From Patescibacteria group bacterium (lineage in GTDB: Bacteria; Patescibacteriota; Minisyncoccia; Minisyncoccales; PEYH01), in assembly GCA_018900835.1 (NCBI GenBank), contig JAHIFQ010000015.1, positions 50,301 through 114,300 on the forward strand: 64,000 nt of DNA, given 5' to 3'. Positions 28,306 to 59,729 of this stretch are shown here, piece by piece (position 1 is the first letter of the stretch; each line of letters begins with the position of its first letter). The notes under the pieces are model-generated. The model did not search any database. It was given only the letters and a program-made list of their open reading frames with translations, and was not told the DNA's origin. The translations under genes and the position numbers were made by a program.

Positions 28306-28659
28306 TTAAAGTAGTTTTTTCCTGCCTTTTTGGATTTGTGCCACAAGTGGTTTGAGCGGAGATAAATCTTCTTTGATCGTTTTCCAAAGAACTTTTTTAT
28401 CCACGCCGAAATATTCGTGTACTAATTTATTGCGCATTCCGGTCATAATTTTCCATGGAATATCAGAATGTTGTTTTTTTATATCTGAAGGGATACGCCT
28501 TGCAGCCTCGCCTATTATTTCGAAGTTTCTAATAGTTGCGTCTACTGTCTTAAGGTCTTTTGAGAATTCGCTAAAATCTAATTTTTCCGTATATCTTTCT
28601 ATTTTTTCTATTGCCTCAAGAATATCATCAATATATACTTTATAATCCCTTTCAGACAT
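28306..28659 (-). CDS. hepT: HepT-like HEPN toxin (DUF86) of a type VII TA pair
   Basis: RNKLVHEY (Rx4-6H HEPN motif). Likely start at MSERDYK. Overlaps mntA stop by 8 nt. Confidence 0.7.
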   Translation of the reverse strand: MSERDYKVYIDDILEAIEKIERYTEKLDFSEFSKDLKTVDATIRNFEIIGEAARRIPSDIKKQHSDIPWKIMTGMRNKLVHEYFGVDKKVLWKTIKEDLSPLKPLVAQIQKGRKKLL

Positions 28660-28945
28660 AAACAGTTTCTTTAATGATTCCGTCCTTGATTCTGGATTTA
28701 AGCGCATCTTTCATTACTAAATCAACTTTTAGTTTTAGTTGTATTTTTAGATAATTTTCAAGCCCGATGAAGCTGAACAAACTGATTGGTTCCGAGAACT
28801 CTACTAAGAGATCTAAATCGCTAGATTTTTTCTGTTTATTTTTTACATAAGAGCCAAAAACACCGATTTTTTTTACTTTAAACTTGTCTTTTAAAATCGG
28901 CTCTAATTCTTTAAGGTTTTTTTGAATCTGAATAAGCTTAGCCAT
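28652..28945 (-). CDS. mntA: MNT-type nucleotidyltransferase antitoxin
   Basis: GVFGSYVKNKQKKSSDLDLLVEF (GSx9-13DxD NTase motif). 97 aa. Confidence 0.7.
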   Translation of the reverse strand: MAKLIQIQKNLKELEPILKDKFKVKKIGVFGSYVKNKQKKSSDLDLLVEFSEPISLFSFIGLENYLKIQLKLKVDLVMKDALKSRIKDGIIKETVYV

Positions 28946-28963
28946 ACTACTATTATAACTTAA

Positions 28964-29965
28964 TTAAAGGCGATAATCTATGCTCATTGCTTGTTTCACG
29001 AGCGCTAGTGTTTCTACTGCTCTTTTTTGGGTCTTTTTTCTCCCTTGTTCCAAAATCTCTTTTATCAAATTTGGTTTTTTGGCAAATTGGCTTCGCTTCT
29101 TGCGAATTGGGTCTAAAAATTCGTTCAACATCTCTGCCAACTGTTTTTTGCAGGCAACGCATCCGATTTTGCCTGTTTCGCATAAGGATTTAATGTCCAA
29201 AGCTTTTTCTGGGAAAAAAGCTAAATAATATTGATAAATATTACAAATTTCTGGTCTACCCGGGTCATCTATTCGTATTTTTTTAGTATCAGTAATTGCT
29301 TTCATCACTTTTTCTTCCACAATCTTGGGACTGTCAGATAAGAATATGGCATTGTTTCTTGATTTTGACATTTTCTGGCCATCTAATCCGGGTAAAGTTG
29401 GCGTTTGTCCGATTATTGCTTCTGGGACAGGAAACACTTTGCCGAATAAACGATTGAATGTTGTAGCGATTTCCCTCGTAATTTCAATATGTGGCAATTG
29501 GTCTTTGCCCACTGGTACTGCATCAGCTCTTACGCACAAGATATCAGCTGCCTGGGATACAGGATAACCAATAAATCCCAAACTCGCTTTTTTAGTGCCT
29601 GACGCTCTTATCTCGTCTTTGACGGTCGGGTTTCTCTCCACTCGCGCCATTGTTATCAGCATTGAAAACAAAAGTGTTAATTCCGCGATTTCCGGTATTT
29701 GGGATTGGATAAATATGGTTGATTTACTCGGGTCAATGCCAACAGATAAATAATCCAGCACAATTTCTTTGATGTTTTTTTCTATATTTTCAACCTTAGA
29801 CAATTGGTCTGATAGAACCTGATAATCAGCAATGATAAAATATGAGTCGTATTTGTCTTGAAGTTCCACTCTGTTTTTAAGCGAACCGACATAATGGCCA
29901 AGATGTAATGGTCCAGTCGGCCTATCCCCTGTTAAAATCGTTTTTTTCATAAAATTACTTGACAA
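28964..29965 (-). CDS. trpS: Tryptophanyl-tRNA synthetase
   Basis: ILTGDRPTGPLHLGHYVG (HIGH) and KMSKS (KMSKSRNNAI). 333 aa. Confidence 0.85.
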   Translation of the reverse strand: MSSNFMKKTILTGDRPTGPLHLGHYVGSLKNRVELQDKYDSYFIIADYQVLSDQLSKVENIEKNIKEIVLDYLSVGIDPSKSTIFIQSQIPEIAELTLLFSMLITMARVERNPTVKDEIRASGTKKASLGFIGYPVSQAADILCVRADAVPVGKDQLPHIEITREIATTFNRLFGKVFPVPEAIIGQTPTLPGLDGQKMSKSRNNAIFLSDSPKIVEEKVMKAITDTKKIRIDDPGRPEICNIYQYYLAFFPEKALDIKSLCETGKIGCVACKKQLAEMLNEFLDPIRKKRSQFAKKPNLIKEILEQGRKKTQKRAVETLALVKQAMSIDYRL

Positions 29966-29996
29966 ATTTTTATTTATTTATTAGGCTTATAACATT

Positions 29997-30205
29997 ACGG
30001 AGGTAGCTCAGGGGTAGAGCACTCTTCTAACACCGATTAAGGTAGCGCAATTCTAATCCACCAAGACTGTTGGTGCGAGAAAAGGATAAGCGAACCTAGC
30101 TTGATGTCTGGCAGTCACCATGAAGGACTGATAGTCCCAGCTCAAGTTCGGAAGAACAAGAGAGGCCCGGGATTCGAATTCTCGCCTCCGCACCAGCACA
30201 CTACT
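29997..30205 (+). tRNA. tRNA gene interrupted by a ~134-nt insertion at anticodon-loop position 37/38 (candidate intron). Apparent anticodon AAC/Val-like but junction ambiguous. CCA encoded.
   Basis: 5' half 29997-30032: acceptor ACGGAGG, U8A9, D-arm GCTC-AGGGGTA-GAGC, stem CTCTT, loop CTAACA. 3' half 30167-30205: C-AAGAG, AGGCC, T-arm CGGGA-TTCGAAT-TCTCG, acceptor CCTCCGC, A73, CCA. A1xC72 mismatch. Confidence 0.5.
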
Positions 30206-30210
30206 AAGAA

Positions 30211-30282
30211 GTGGCGATAGCTCGCTGGCAAGAGCACTCGGACATATCCGATAGATTGAAGGTTCAAATCCTTCTCGCCACT
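30211..30282 (+). tRNA. tRNA-like gene with aberrant anticodon arm (5-bp stem TCGGA/TCCGA around a 4-nt loop CATA). Possible pseudogene or non-canonical tRNA.
   Basis: Perfect acceptor GTGGCGA/TCGCCAC, T8A9, D-arm GCTC..GAGC, T-arm GAAGG-TTCAAAT-CCTTC. No canonical 7-nt anticodon loop can be drawn. Confidence 0.4.
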
Positions 30283-30324
30283 TCAGCGCATTACAAGGGA
30301 TCTCTATGAGATCCCTTTTCTCTT

Positions 30325-31167
30325 TTATTTAAACAACTTAATTTTTTCTTCTACTTTTTTCTGAACTGCTTCAATGACTTTCGGATAAACTTCGTATGGC
30401 TTAATTGTTTTCTTTTTTAACTCCTTTTGCAAGGCCTGCTTCCAAACAATTCGCAATTCAGTATTGATATTTATTTTAACAATTCCATTTTTAATGGCTT
30501 TCTTGATATCGTTCTCATCAGTCCCTGACCCCCCGTGCAGAACTAAAAATACTTTAATCTCTTTATTGATTTTTTTCAACAAATCAATATTAAGCCTTAT
30601 TTTATTCCGATATGTTCCGTGAACATTACCAATATTTATTGCCAATGAATCAATGCCAGTGGCTTTTACGAATTTCTTCGCCTTTTCTATATCCTCATAA
30701 AATGACTCTTTTGCCTTGAAGCTTTTTTTATGGGTTTCCGAGCTTCCTTTGATTGATTTTATCTCGCCCTCAACCAATACCCCTTTTCTATGCGCATATT
30801 CAACGACTTTTCTCGTTTGTTTTATATTCTCCTCGAATTTCAAACCAGACCCGTCAAAGTGAACAGAGTCATATCCGTATTGAATCGCCGTTTTAATGAT
30901 GTTTATGCTTTTCCCGTGGTCTAAATGCAGAAAAAGATTAGGGTAAGGTTTTCTAAAATTGTCCATAAATTTTCTGATTCCTTCTATGCCCAAAAAATCC
31001 GCCTCGCTTTCGCTGGTTCCAAGTATAACAGGGACATTTTTCTTCATTGCTGCCTTGACTATTCCATTAAATTGAACAATTGAGGAAAAATTGAATTGAC
31101 CTATCGCCCATTTCTCCTTATGAGCTTTCTGTAAAAAATATTTAAGAGAATTATTTTTAGAGCTCAT
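30325..31167 (-). CDS. fba: Class II fructose-bisphosphate aldolase
   Basis: Class II aldolase motifs: HLDHG, VLHGGSGT, ININTE. Confidence 0.8.
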   Translation of the reverse strand: MSSKNNSLKYFLQKAHKEKWAIGQFNFSSIVQFNGIVKAAMKKNVPVILGTSESEADFLGIEGIRKFMDNFRKPYPNLFLHLDHGKSINIIKTAIQYGYDSVHFDGSGLKFEENIKQTRKVVEYAHRKGVLVEGEIKSIKGSSETHKKSFKAKESFYEDIEKAKKFVKATGIDSLAINIGNVHGTYRNKIRLNIDLLKKINKEIKVFLVLHGGSGTDENDIKKAIKNGIVKININTELRIVWKQALQKELKKKTIKPYEVYPKVIEAVQKKVEEKIKLFK

Positions 31168-32184: not shown

Positions 32185-32904
32185 CTATTCTATTACTACC
32201 TCTTCAAAATCAACTAATTCTTTTTTAAACTTAAGCCAATTATTAACAAATTCTCGGCAACCATCTGCACCTTCCATTATTTTCTCTAAAAATTCCCTAT
32301 TTGTCAAAGAAGGGAAATTTTTCTTTCCTAAATAATCTGGATAACTTGACCATTTATATTTATTTTCTAAAAAATCAATTGCCGCATCTATGTTTTCTAT
32401 TTGCACTCCTTTGTTTTTCCATTCCAGAATTATTAATGACATTGGATTTGTGTGTATATAAACAAACACAGTTTCTAATCGCTCTTCTGTCTCGATACGA
32501 ACTATCCTGTATCTTCCTTGAAAAAGATGTCCATTCCTCTCATATTTTTTATTATAGTAACCACTATAACCTGCTCCAATCTTATGCATTAATTTGCTGA
32601 TTCCGTTATCGCAAGTTTGTTTTATTAACAAATGAATATGATTTGGCATTAGGCAAAATGCCAAAATTTCTACCAAAAGTTTCCTTTTCTTTCTATTCTC
32701 GCCGAGATCGTTTCTCGGCAGAGATAGCGGAGATAAGTTTCTTCTATAATCTCTGGATACTGGATTTTCGTCGTTAAATTCAAAAAGGTTGTTTATCATT
32801 CGAAAATAATCTTTATCGCCACGAAAAAGGTCTATCCCCTCTATTGTTCGGGTGACGATATGATATATTTCTCCATTTACTATTTCAGGTCTTTTTGATG
32901 GCAT
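32185..32904 (-). mobile_element. REP-associated tyrosine transposase (RAYT; IS200/IS605 TnpA Y1 HuH family)
   Basis: HuH motif LMPNHIHLLI and catalytic Tyr region YSGYYNKKYERNGHLFQGRY. Flanked by REP palindromes. Carries one REP in-frame (LPRNDLGE). Confidence 0.75.
32701..32719. repeat. REP family 1 copy inside RAYT coding sequence (in-frame)
   Basis: GCCGAGATCGTTTCTCGGC. Confidence 0.85.
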
Positions 32905-49738: not shown

Positions 49739-49835
49739 AATCGATGGTGTTAATTATTAGAATATCTTATCATGGTTTCTCAAAAAGAAAAACCGCCGAC
49801 TATTCTGTTTCCAAAGATTCAGAAATTGTCGGCAG

Positions 49836-50090
49836 TCAGATGAGGCGGAGTTGGCCTCTTTCTCGCGAGTATGCAATCGCTGCTGCTCGCCTGAAGGCGC
49901 TTGTAGGGATTTTGTACGACATGTTCCTTTTGCCACTATCTGCGCTACTTGCGACAGAGACAGGCCTAAGCTTCCTCCCCCACGGCTTCCAAAAGGTGAC
50001 GGTTACAGGATAGGGGTTTTTATAGACCTCCATCTTGATGAGAATGCCTTCTTCCGTTTTATCAACAGATAAAACATCAGATAATGCCAT
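49836..50090 (-). CDS. GC-rich small protein (84 aa from ATG) with consensus promoter, strong SD and terminator
   Basis: AAGGAGG-7nt-ATG. ~52% GC. Terminator GCCGAC…GTCGGC+T-run at ~49790-49835. Several overlapping ORFs on both strands typical of a GC-rich insert. Confidence 0.5.
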   Translation of the reverse strand: MALSDVLSVDKTEEGILIKMEVYKNPYPVTVTFWKPWGRKLRPVSVASSADSGKRNMSYKIPTSAFRRAAAIAYSRERGQLRLI

Positions 50091-50143
50091 GACGATCACC
50101 TCCTTCTGGATTTTTCCAGATATAGTCCCAATGATCTGTCTTC

Positions 50144-50171
50144 ATTATACACCCAAAATCCCCATTGTCAA
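50144..50171 (-). promoter_or_regulatory. Near-consensus sigma70 promoter TTGACA-16-TATAAT (minus strand) driving the 84-aa gene
   Basis: Plus-strand TGTCAA at 50166-50171 and ATTATA at 50144-50149. Confidence 0.6.
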
Positions 50172-50173
50172 CC

Positions 50174-50202
50174 AAAATTACGAGGCCAGGCCTCGTAATT
50201 TT
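50174..50202. terminator. 14+1+14 perfect palindrome AAAATTACGAGGCC-A-GGCCTCGTAATTTT, terminator of upstream operon
   Basis: Immediately 3' of the stop of 50208-50831. A/T runs on both sides. Confidence 0.6.
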
Positions 50203-50207
50203 ATCTC

Positions 50208-57608: not shown

Positions 57609-57700
57609 TATTACCTCAATTTCCCTTATGTTTCAATCAAAAAAAGTAGCGCTGCAGACCGGATGTCTGACAGCGCCATAGCAACCTCTTGCGCAGGCCT

Positions 57701-57955
57701 TCATGAGGATTTTGCGAGGAGAATCGTCTCCACGAGATCAACAATCTTCTTGAGCGTGGTACATTCTTGAGCCTGCTCATCAGGGAGATAGATAGAGAGC
57801 TCATCTTCAATCTCCATGATGATTTCAACCGCATCCAATGAATCAGCGCCGAGATTTTCTCTCAAGTCGTCTGAATCTCCTGGCTCCTCTGTGAGATACA
57901 GTTGAGCCATAACGATTCCCACAACTTTTTTTCGGATATCTTCTCTGGTCATCAC
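57701..57955 (-). CDS. acpP: Acyl carrier protein
   Basis: LGADSLDAVEI phosphopantetheine-attachment motif. 84 aa. Confidence 0.8.
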   Translation of the reverse strand: MMTREDIRKKVVGIVMAQLYLTEEPGDSDDLRENLGADSLDAVEIIMEIEDELSIYLPDEQAQECTTLKKIVDLVETILLAKSS

Positions 57956-58020
57956 TCACCTCCTTGGCCAATGGTCCTTGTTCTGTTTATACCCTAAAAC
58001 AATTTTGATAATCTGTCAAA

Positions 58021-59220: not shown

Positions 59221-59264
59221 AGAACTATTGACAAATTAAATCTCATGATATAGGATAATAATAT

Positions 59265-59480
59265 CACAGCGGGAATCGATATGGGAGTTGCGGCGCTCGG
59301 AAGAACAGCGCTTGCGGGGTAGGCACTCGCTTAGCCGAATCTGGCAGGGGTTACGGCACCTCTTAAATAAAGCTGGCACACACAAGGAGCCAATGAGGCA
59401 CCACACCGAGTCGGAGAGTATCCGGCCAACACCCATACCCGCTGCATCCGCGTCACCCTTTACAGGTTGGCGCGTTTTCT
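59265..59480 (+). ncRNA. GC-rich structured element, candidate ncRNA of unknown class
   Basis: ~58% GC. Stems GCGCU-CGGAAGAAC-AGCGC, CGCGTCACC…GGTTGGCGCG then TTTTCTTTT. Upstream TTGACA…TATAGG. ORF 59288-59536 judged spurious. Confidence 0.3.
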
Positions 59481-59487
59481 TTTATCT

Positions 59488-59520
59488 GAATTTCTTTTTT
59501 TCTAAATCTCTGACTTCTTT
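59488..59520. repeat. 33-bp direct repeat, copy 1 (duplicate of the last 11 codons of metalloprotease gene 59730-60107)
   Basis: GAATTTCTTTTTTTCTAAATCTCTGACTTCTTT, identical to 59746-59778. Followed by CAT (relic start codon on minus strand). Confidence 0.85.
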
Positions 59521-59587
59521 CTTAAACATTTTTTAAATGTGGATAACTGTTATTGACAAAAAACTGATTAATGATAAGGTATAAATA

Positions 59588-59690
59588 GTGCTTGTGGGCG
59601 TAAGCCCCGTTCAGCTAAGGTTTTCCTAAGCTGAAGGCAAGCACTACGAAGAAGCTGATACACATCGGCTTTTTTGTTTTTTATTGATCC
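59588..59690 (+). ncRNA. Compact candidate sRNA with intrinsic terminator
   Basis: Closing stem AGTGCTTG/CAAGCACT enclosing GGGC-GUAA-GCCC (GNRA tetraloop) and an 11-bp hairpin TTCAGCTAAGG/CCTAAGCTGAA. Terminator AGCTGAT-ACAC-ATCGGCT+TTTTTTGTTTTTT. Upstream TTGACA (59553) and TATAAAT (59580) with non-canonical spacing. Confidence 0.4.
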
Positions 59691-59729
59691 TCTATCCCCT
59701 TGTCCGCTAATTGTCTGCATAATATAAAA

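What the first reader, a model, noticed from the sequence alone, without database searches (positions are those of the whole stretch)
29997..30205. tRNA gene split by a ~134-nt insertion at the canonical 37/38 anticodon-loop position
A well-formed 5' tRNA half stops after CTCTT-CTAACA. The complementary 3' anticodon stem strand AAGAG, a 5-nt variable loop, T-arm, acceptor 3' strand and encoded CCA resume 134 nt later. The insertion point coincides with the canonical archaeal/eukaryal tRNA intron position. The insert is too short for a typical group I intron (≥200 nt), and I could not draw a clean bulge-helix-bulge. Oddities: A1xC72 mismatch and an implied anticodon AAC (A34), unusual for bacterial tRNA-Val. 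This could be an unusual bacterial tRNA intron, a mini-insertion that inactivated the gene, or a mis-parsed structure.
Basis: partly seen in the sequence, partly recalled or inferred. Interest (0 to 1): 0.75.

Follow-up and report, generated by a model that had tools for sequence, protein, structure and literature searches.

The report
Aberrant tRNA gene with unclassifiable insert
A Patescibacteria (CPR) genome carries a young, species-specific pair of defective tRNA-like genes; one is split in its anticodon loop by a 124-base insert that matches no known intron class, so it is more likely a dead or non-decoding tRNA relic than a new kind of bacterial intron.

Summary
29997-30195 is a good cloverleaf with encoded CCA, interrupted in the anticodon loop. 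The net insert is 124 nt, not 134. Its position is ambiguous because AACA repeats at both junctions.

The insert is not a recognisable intron. Rfam, an nhmmer profile, a custom covariance model and a conserved-block test built from validated bacterial tRNA group I introns all fail. It is shorter than any of the 333 known bacterial tRNA group I introns (184-894 nt). No U(-1)/G(omega) pair leaves a 7-nt loop. The bulge-helix-bulge motif is imperfect. Every 7-nt register gives an A34 anticodon (AGA, AAA or AAC). The tRNA body also has A1xC72 and A53-U61.

The neighbouring tRNA (30211-30282) has a 6-nt anticodon loop. The two genes form a 374-bp cassette on the opposite strand, between fba and trpS, with a -35 box and a terminator. 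The cassette is identical in three independent assemblies. It is absent from the same site in all eight relatives examined, and no homologue turned up in any collection searched.

Best reading: a recently acquired, non-decoding tRNA-like pair. A small novel intron or a tRNA-scaffolded RNA is not excluded. There is no covariation or expression evidence.

The parts
29959..29987 (+). Possible promoter of the cassette: -35 TTGACA (29959-64), a 17-nt spacer, and a weak -10 TAGGCT (29982-87). It ends 10 nt before the tRNA 5' end.
   Evidence: Read from the sequence. The consensus scan did not flag it, because the -10 has only 3 of 6 matches. Inferred, weak.
29997..30028 (+). 5' exon of the split tRNA-like gene (positions 1-33): acceptor strand, D arm, anticodon-stem strand CUCUU, C32, U33.
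   Evidence: ARAGORN -i; sequence. U8, A14, G15, G18, G19 and A21 are present. A1 is mismatched with C72.
30029..30152 (+). 124-nt intervening sequence, in ARAGORN's register. The equivalent registers run up to 30033-30156 or 30034-30157. Predicted fold: closing helix CCGA/UCGG (30033-36 / 30148-51) with two hairpin arms. GC is 47.6%.
   Evidence: z = -2.46 for the 129-nt stretch 30029-30157, which holds the insert plus 5 loop nt; GC in the top 4.5% of 124-nt windows. No Rfam family at E<=10. No match to the group I profile, covariance model or block tests.
30153..30195 (+). 3' exon: the rest of the loop, anticodon-stem strand AAGAG (30158-62), variable loop AGGCC, T arm with A53-U61, acceptor strand, A73, encoded CCA (30193-95).
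30211..30282 (+). Second tRNA-like gene of the cassette, CAU-type. It has a 6-nt anticodon loop ACAUAU (30242-47) without U33, a C27xU43 mismatch, G14, and no encoded CCA.
   Evidence: Rfam tRNA 46.3 bits, against 64.5 and 66 bits for two native tRNAs on the same contig. ARAGORN finds it only below the default threshold. Fold. Not significantly similar (E = 0.08-0.3) to phage tRNA-Ile.
30295..30327 (+). Intrinsic terminator of the cassette: a 10-bp stem AAGGGAUCUC/GAGAUCCCUU followed by a U-rich tail.
   Evidence: A U tract follows the hairpin only on the + strand.
29951..30324 (.). The whole 374-bp intergenic cassette between trpS (28964-29950, -) and fba (30325-31167, -). It is absent from the same site in relatives.
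   Evidence: Eight relatives with TrpRS 79-91% identical have fba and trpS overlapping or separated by up to 124 nt, with no tRNA between them.

Best explanation
The split tRNA is one half of a young, species-specific 374-bp cassette that holds two aberrant tRNA-like genes. The cassette was inserted, on the opposite strand, between two genes (fba and trpS) that are adjacent or overlapping in every relative examined.

The first gene is a genuine cloverleaf whose anticodon loop carries a 124-nt, GC-rich, moderately structured insert. That insert lacks the catalytic core and the splice-site rules of group I introns, is not a group II intron, and forms only an imperfect bulge-helix-bulge. No way of removing it restores a normal bacterial anticodon loop.

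The most likely state is therefore a non-decoding relic. If transcribed, the RNA may fold into a tRNA-shaped body and be end-processed like a tRNA. It would not be spliced into a working decoder, and neither would its neighbour with the 6-nt loop.

Shown: the anatomy, the negative class tests, the lineage-specific presence, and the reproducibility across assemblies.
Inferred: lack of splicing, lack of decoding function, and recent acquisition by transfer or duplication.
For: Absence elsewhere:
- The cassette is absent at the syntenic fba|trpS junction in eight relatives.
- No exon or cassette homologue was found in GTDB species genomes, JGI metagenomes or IMG/VR, nor among translated spurious ORFs.

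Group I tests, all negative:
- Rfam at E<=10.
- An nhmmer profile of 14 bacterial tRNA group I introns taken from the supplementary tables of PMC13011429, including the experimentally assayed ones.
- A custom covariance model of the P7-P3'-P8-P7'-P9 core.
- An ordered conserved-block score of 23.0, against 20.3 +/- 4.3 in shuffles (24% score as high) and 75-84 in the real introns scored.
- Length of 124 nt, against 184-894 nt for 333 bacterial tRNA group I introns, none of which sits at 37/38 (PMC13011429).

Splice and loop problems:
- The only U(-1)/G(omega) combinations give a loop without U33, or loops of 8 or 9 nt.
- All 7-nt registers have A34.

Departures from a working tRNA:
- A1xC72 and A53-U61.
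- The spliced constructs survive ARAGORN thresholds only up to 112%, against 116-124% for the 14 control tRNAs from PMC13011429.
- The partner tRNA has a 6-nt loop and scores 46 bits, against 64.5-66 bits for native tRNAs of the same contig.

No splicing endonuclease, RtcB ligase or homing endonuclease was found in the 61 window ORFs of at least 90 aa that were scanned (of 63), or in the roughly 9-10 kb fetched beyond each window end.
Against: - Both tRNA bodies are well preserved. In the split gene nearly all tertiary-interaction nucleotides are intact (U8-A14, G15-C48, G18/G19, U54-A58). The damage in both genes is concentrated in the anticodon loop, which random decay would rarely produce.
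- The cassette keeps a -35 box and a clean intrinsic terminator.
- The insert is GC-rich for this genome (47.6% against 36.8%) and folds better than most shuffles (z = -2.46). That is what a functional structured RNA would look like.
- Patescibacteria have compact genomes and are known for unusual introns.
- No second, intact copy of the same tRNA could be sought, because only about 83 kb of the genome was available.
Confidence: 0.5

Rival explanations
1. A functional, previously undescribed small tRNA intron. It would be self-splicing or protein-dependent, and would be removed to give a working tRNA. Candidates are tRNA-Val(AAC, read as IAC) with the intron at 37/38, or tRNA-Phe(GAA) spliced at U33|...G30150|GAAGA with an expanded loop.
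For: - The cloverleaf with encoded CCA and intact tertiary nucleotides.
- The insert is structured and GC-rich.
- U33 followed by ...G|GAAGA mirrors the Phe(GAA) 33/34 group I arrangement in a Doudnabacteria genome (Table S3 of PMC13011429).
- GAUAGUCC resembles the P7 3' strand of group I introns.
- Patescibacteria are rich in tRNA and rRNA introns.
Against: - There is no detectable ribozyme core.
- There is no room for P1 or an internal guide sequence next to the 5' splice site.
- U33/G30150 leaves a 9-nt loop. The 7-nt registers give A34 and lack U(-1)/G(omega).
- The gene is absent in relatives and there are no homologues anywhere, so nothing shows conservation.
- A53-U61 and A1xC72.
Confidence: 0.13
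2. A tRNA-scaffolded or tRNA-like non-coding RNA that works unspliced. The tRNA body would provide RNase P/Z processing and stability, and the Y-shaped insert would be the functional part. The second tRNA-like gene would serve as a processing partner.
For: - The cassette has its own -35 box and terminator.
- The lesions are confined to the anticodon loops while the bodies are kept.
- Insert GC and fold z-score.
- The predicted minimum-energy fold keeps the full cloverleaf, with the insert as a separate domain.
Against: - No homologues and no covariation are available.
- The fold of the whole precursor is not better than shuffles (z = -0.59).
- I know of no bacterial precedent (own knowledge).
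- No associated protein gene is specific to the cassette. The neighbours are the same in relatives that lack it.
Confidence: 0.17
3. The insert is the deletion remnant of a group I intron at 33/34. The 6-nt loop of the neighbour is the scar of an imprecise loss of another 33/34 intron, a site used in CAU-anticodon tRNAs. This is a specific origin story, and it is compatible with the pseudogene reading.
For: - Group I introns at 33/34 occur in Met/Ile2(CAU) and Phe(GAA) tRNAs of Patescibacteria and other phyla.
- The missing nucleotide of tRNA 2 lies exactly at 32/33.
- GAUAGUCC, AAGACU and UAAUCC...CCAAG occur in the same order as the P4/P6, P7 and P7' elements.
Against: - The motifs were picked after the fact. 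The unbiased ordered-block score is not significant: 24% of shuffles and 6% of genomic windows score as high.
- The profile and the covariance model find nothing.
- Two J8/7 positions that are invariant in the 8-intron core alignment are not matched.
Confidence: 0.12
4. An archaeal-type protein-spliced (bulge-helix-bulge) intron at or near 37/38. It would be acquired from an archaeon or processed by an unrecognised bacterial endonuclease and ligase.
For: - One register places the junction at 37/38.
- A BHB-like geometry exists. The bulges are ACA (30030-32) and ACA (30156-58), separated by U-A, C-G, U-A and an AxA mismatch. They are flanked by a 4-bp outer helix (27-30/40-43) and the 4-bp helix CCGA/UCGG.
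Against: - In the canonical register only 2 of the 4 central pairs form.
- In the shifted register, symmetric cuts leave CUCUUCUAACAAGAG, a 5-nt loop.
- 33 comparable motifs occur by chance in this 202-nt RNA.
- No EndA or RtcB was found in the roughly 83 kb examined.
- BHB introns are unknown in bacteria (PMC13011429 introduction).
- The -35 box and the encoded CCA look bacterial.
Confidence: 0.03

Closest known systems
Group I introns in Patescibacteria tRNA genes (Nakagawa et al., mSystems 2026, PMC13011429; Williams 2020 bioRxiv, tFind)
   Same: The same phylum, the same target (the anticodon loop of a tRNA gene), the gene is missed by default tRNA finders, and ARAGORN -i mis-assigns the isotype.
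   Different: - 124 nt against 184-894 nt.
- No catalytic core by four independent tests.
- No U(-1)/G(omega) pair compatible with a 7-nt loop.
- No sensible anticodon after removal.
- Not conserved in relatives.
Archaeal and eukaryal bulge-helix-bulge introns at position 37/38
   Same: One register puts the insert at 37/38. A relaxed two-bulge motif can be drawn.
   Different: - The central helix is imperfect.
- The symmetric cleavage product has a 5-nt loop.
- No splicing endonuclease or ligase was seen.
- The context is bacterial.
tRNA pseudogenes and disrupted tRNA genes, including aberrant tRNAs carried by mobile elements
   Same: - Lower scores than native tRNAs.
- Departures at near-universal positions (53-61, 1-72; G14 in the neighbour).
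- A lineage-specific location, with no orthologues.
   Different: The lesions are confined to the anticodon loops of both genes, the stems are nearly intact, and expression signals are present. This is tidier than ordinary decay.
Unclassified intervening sequences in CPR rRNA genes (Brown et al. 2015; Tsurumaki et al. 2024; known to me from the reference list of PMC13011429 and from memory, not read here)
   Same: Inserts in structured-RNA genes of the same phylum that do not fit group I or group II models.
   Different: Those are in rRNA. Many carry homing endonuclease genes or are shown to be absent from mature rRNA. Here there is neither a protein gene nor expression evidence.

Membership tests
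Group I intron | Conserved catalytic core (P3-P9, with the P7 guanosine-binding site and J8/7) recognisable by covariance or profile models | tested here: not met
   No Rfam RF00028 hit at E<=10 on a 451-nt stretch. The nhmmer profile of 14 bacterial tRNA introns gave no hit at E<=100. The custom 3'-core model R1 gave no hit inside the insert, while noise reached 8.5 bits elsewhere. Block-chain score 23 against 75-84 for the real introns scored, not above shuffles.
Group I intron | U at -1 and G at omega, delimiting an intron whose removal leaves a 7-nt anticodon loop with the expected anticodon | tested here: not met
   The eight registers were enumerated. U31/G30150 gives the loop GAAGAAC, without U33. 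U33 with G30150 or G30151 gives 9- or 8-nt loops. The 7-nt registers that keep U33 end the intron in A.
Group I intron | Length sufficient for the core (the shortest bacterial tRNA example is 184 nt) | tested here: not met
   124 nt, against 184-894 nt in 333 introns (PMC13011429).
Group I intron | Guanosine-dependent self-splicing in vitro | not testable with these tools
   Needs transcription and splicing assays.
Group II intron | Domain V/VI catalytic structure | tested here: not met
   No Rfam group II hit at the gathering threshold or at E<=10. 124 nt is far too short.
Bulge-helix-bulge (protein-spliced) tRNA intron | Two 3-nt bulges separated by a 4-bp helix at the exon-intron junctions, giving a normal mature loop | tested here: not met
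   The canonical 37/38 register has 2 of 4 central pairs. The best shifted register has 3 of 4, but its product has a 5-nt loop. 33 similar motifs occur by chance in the precursor.
Bulge-helix-bulge (protein-spliced) tRNA intron | Splicing endonuclease (EndA) and RNA ligase (RtcB) encoded by the genome | tested here: inconclusive
   None among the 61 window ORFs of at least 90 aa that were scanned (of 63), or in the gene calls for the roughly 9-10 kb fetched beyond each window end. The rest of the genome was not available.
Canonical decoding tRNA | Cloverleaf with conserved tertiary nucleotides | tested here: met
   ARAGORN -i. U8, A14, G15-C48, G18, G19, A21 and U54-A58 are present.
Canonical decoding tRNA | 7-nt anticodon loop with U33 and an anticodon used in bacteria; G53-C61; a paired 1-72 | tested here: not met
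   All 7-nt registers give A34 (AGA, AAA or AAC). The T stem has A53-U61, and A1 is mismatched with C72. That A34 is rare and G53-C61 near-universal is established knowledge, not tested here.
tmRNA or other tRNA-like Rfam families | Match to the family model | tested here: not met
   ARAGORN found no tmRNA. Rfam found nothing but the neighbouring tRNA.

The most novel reading that the evidence does not exclude
The 124-nt element is the first example of a new, very small class of bacterial tRNA intervening sequence. It would be neither group I, group II nor a standard BHB intron, and would be removed from the anticodon loop in a CPR bacterium by an unknown ribozyme or protein activity. Alternatively, it is a natural tRNA-scaffolded RNA.
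Probability: 0.12. Interest if true: 0.8.

Novelty: new variant of a known kind. Interest (0 to 1): 0.33.

Why it matters
If the insert were spliced, it would be the smallest bacterial tRNA intron and the first outside groups I and II. That would bear on how introns persist in the reduced genomes of Patescibacteria, and on the proposed link between group I and BHB introns.

If it is a relic, as seems more likely, its value is practical:
- Intron-aware tRNA finders call it tRNA-Ser(AGA), which is almost certainly wrong.
- Such genes can distort tRNA-based completeness and codon-reading inferences for CPR genomes.
- It shows that aberrant tRNA-like cassettes can be gained between tightly packed housekeeping genes.

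Tried and rejected
Class tests that failed:
- Group I: Rfam, an nhmmer profile (44), a custom covariance model (47-50), and an ordered-block PWM test (73-74). Rejected as unsupported. Only GAUAGUCC resembles P7.
- Group II, known self-cleaving ribozymes, tmRNA, T-box on the minus strand as a trpS leader: no Rfam hit on either strand.
- BHB motif by brute force: imperfect, and the product is wrong.

Other origins of the insert:
- Repeat or MITE: no second copy in the window or in any fetched locus. There is only a 4-nt AACA direct repeat and no terminal inverted repeats. Excising one repeat copy would leave a 5-nt loop.

Searches for relatives:
- Exon 27-mer in JGI metagenomes.
- 5' half 21-mer and the intron-less pattern in GTDB genomes.
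- Three patterns in IMG/VR.
- The 3' half of tRNA 2 in metagenomes: two unrelated hits.
- blastn against phages and E. coli genomes: only non-significant similarity to tRNA-Val, tRNA-Ile and tRNA-Thr.
- Translated-ORF searches of the cassette in the 5.8-billion-protein set.
- All of these were empty or uninformative, so the isotype could not be assigned by homology.

Context and controls:
- Synteny in eight relatives: the cassette is absent in all.
- A link to the neighbouring MntA/HepT toxin-antitoxin pair or to the IS200-like transposase: rejected. Relatives carry those genes without the cassette.
- Assembly error: rejected, because the sequence is identical in independent assemblies.

Full report
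**What is there.** The window is a low-GC (36.8%) chromosome segment of a Patescibacteria (Parcubacteria/Paceibacteria-like) bacterium. The TrpRS encoded at 28964-29950 matches proteins that their sources name as Patescibacteria or Parcubacteria. The other genes are ordinary housekeeping genes. Between trpS and the aldolase gene fba (30325-31167), both on the minus strand, lies a 374-bp spacer that carries two tRNA-like genes on the plus strand.

**The first gene.** It is the one reported. The 5' half runs from 29997: ACGGAGG-UA-GCUC-AGGGGUA-GAGC-A-CUCUU-CU... The 3' half resumes with AAGAG at 30158, then AGGCC, CGGGA-UUCGAAU-UCUCG, CCUCCGC, A73 and CCA, ending at 30195. Default ARAGORN and Rfam at its gathering threshold miss it. 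ARAGORN with intron search calls it at 29997-30195 as 'tRNA-Ser(AGA)' with a 124-nt intron after U33. This is the only such call in the window, and 20 shuffled windows gave one call in total. The same sequence, base for base, is present in three independent assemblies.

The net insert is 124 nt, not 134. The gene ends at 30195. AACA occurs at both junctions (30029-32 and 30155-58), so the insertion point cannot be fixed. The three possible 7-nt loops are CUAGAAC, CUAAAAC and CUAACAC.

**Is it an intron of a known class?** A 2026 survey (PMC13011429) shows that group I introns are common in Patescibacteria tRNA genes. They are 184-894 nt long and obey the U(-1)/G(omega) rule. They occur at every loop position except 37/38. 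I took 14 bacterial tRNA group I introns from that paper's supplementary tables, including the experimentally assayed ones, and tested the insert in four ways:
- Rfam at E<=10 on a 451-nt stretch gives no group I or II hit and no ribozyme hit.
- An nhmmer profile of the 14 introns gives nothing at E<=100.
- A covariance model of the P7-P3'-P8-P7'-P9 core gives no hit inside the insert, while random noise elsewhere reaches 8.5 bits.
- Conserved blocks defined without reference to this sequence, chained in order, score 23.0. Shuffles score 20.3 +/- 4.3 (24% as high), 5.9% of genomic windows score as high, and the real introns scored reach 75-84.

Only GAUAGUCC resembles the P7 3' strand. Two J8/7 positions that are invariant in the 8-intron core alignment are not matched. 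No U(-1)/G(omega) pair leaves a normal loop. U31/G30150 gives GAAGAAC, which lacks U33. U33 with G30150 or G30151 gives 9- or 8-nt loops.

The arrangement U33|...G|GAAGA does mirror a Doudnabacteria tRNA-Phe(GAA) 33/34 intron, but two extra bases (AC) then precede the stem.

A brute-force search for bulge-helix-bulge geometry finds only 2 of 4 central pairs in the canonical 37/38 register. A shifted register has 3 of 4, with two ACA bulges, but symmetric cleavage there would leave a 5-nt loop. Thirty-three comparable motifs occur in the precursor by chance. No EndA, RtcB or homing endonuclease is encoded in the roughly 83 kb I could examine.

**Is it a working tRNA?**
- Every 7-nt register gives A34 (AGA, AAA or AAC). 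By established knowledge, bacteria use A34 essentially only in tRNA-Arg(ACG).
- The T stem closes with A53-U61 instead of G53-C61.
- Position 1-72 is an AxC mismatch.
- Spliced constructs survive ARAGORN thresholds up to 112%, whereas the 14 control tRNAs from the paper survive to 116-124%.
- On the other hand, nearly all tertiary-interaction nucleotides are intact.

**The neighbour and the cassette.** The second gene (30211-30282) is recognised by Rfam at 46.3 bits. It has a 6-nt anticodon loop ACAUAU without U33, a C27xU43 mismatch and G14. ARAGORN accepts it only below the default threshold. Two native tRNAs on the same contig, Lys-UUU and Gln-UUG, score 64.5 and 66 bits and have normal loops. 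The pair is preceded by a perfect -35 box with a weak -10. It is followed by a clean intrinsic terminator that works only on the plus strand.

**Comparative evidence.** In eight relatives whose TrpRS is 79-91% identical, fba and trpS overlap or are separated by 0-124 nt, with no tRNA and no similarity to the cassette. The cassette is therefore a gain in this lineage. The searches for relatives, and their outcomes, are listed under what was tried and rejected. All were empty or uninformative. Consequently there is no covariation evidence, and the isotype cannot be assigned.

**Points in favour of function.**
- The insert has 47.6% GC, in the top 4.5% of 124-nt windows and above nearly all intergenic spacers.
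- The 129-nt stretch that holds it folds better than 198 of 200 shuffles (z = -2.46). The whole precursor does not (z = -0.59).
- Both genes are damaged precisely in the anticodon loop while their stems are almost intact, which random decay would rarely produce.

**Verdict.** The most probable reading (about 0.5) is a recently acquired pair of non-decoding tRNA-like genes, the first inactivated by, or carrying, an unclassifiable insert. Rival readings are:
- a tRNA-scaffolded RNA that works unspliced (about 0.17);
- a genuinely new small intron (about 0.13);
- a decayed group I intron as the origin of the insert (about 0.12, compatible with the main reading);
- BHB splicing (about 0.03).

The feature is real and odd. 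Without conservation or expression evidence it does not yet amount to a new intron class. RNA data across the junction and a full tRNA census of the genome would settle the question.

Noticed in passing
window 30211-30282: The adjacent tRNA-like gene (CAU-type) has a 6-nt anticodon loop ACAUAU lacking U33, a C27xU43 mismatch and G14. Rfam scores it 46 bits, against about 65 bits for native tRNAs. The missing base lies at the 33/34 site where group I introns sit in CAU tRNAs of other Patescibacteria.
   Followed up: partly
L012 3104-3205 (human-gut metagenome contig UOJQ01000235): A tRNA with the same acceptor and T arm as tRNA 2, but with a 34-nt 'anticodon loop', i.e. a 27-nt insert that extends the anticodon arm. 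Rfam scores it 38.6 bits. ARAGORN calls it Met(CAT) with an intron at position 37. Another short, unclassified insert in a tRNA gene of a non-archaeal-looking contig.
   Followed up: partly
window 30326 (L002, L003): Contigs from two independent Logan runs both end at the same base, inside the fba stop codon at the right edge of the cassette. This hints at a polymorphism or a second context for the cassette in those samples.
   Followed up: no
window 30029-30032 and 30155-30158: A 4-nt direct repeat AACA flanks the insert and forms two symmetric ACA bulges in a relaxed BHB-like fold. Removing one copy together with the insert would leave a 5-nt loop.
   Followed up: yes
window 28306-28945; L004-L009: An MntA/HepT (nucleotidyltransferase/HEPN RNase) toxin-antitoxin pair follows trpS. 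Relatives carry HicAB at this spot, with or without MntA/HepT, so this is a variable toxin-antitoxin hotspot next to the cassette.
   Followed up: partly
window 32185-32904: An IS200-like Y1 transposase gene (239 aa, partial domain match) lies 2 kb from the cassette. It is also present in relatives that lack the cassette, so it is probably unrelated.
   Followed up: partly
L006-L009, about 1877-2000: In some relatives the fba-trpS spacer holds two GC-rich hairpins (GTTAGGGTCTGACCCTAAC and ACGAGGCCGGGCCTCGT). This intergenic site is variable across the group.
   Followed up: no
window 49739-50207, 57609-58020, 59221-59729: Intergenic gaps of 400-500 nt with raised GC (0.43-0.44) and no Rfam hit. 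At least one holds a small acyl-carrier-protein gene, according to the gene calls for L018. The others were not examined.
   Followed up: no
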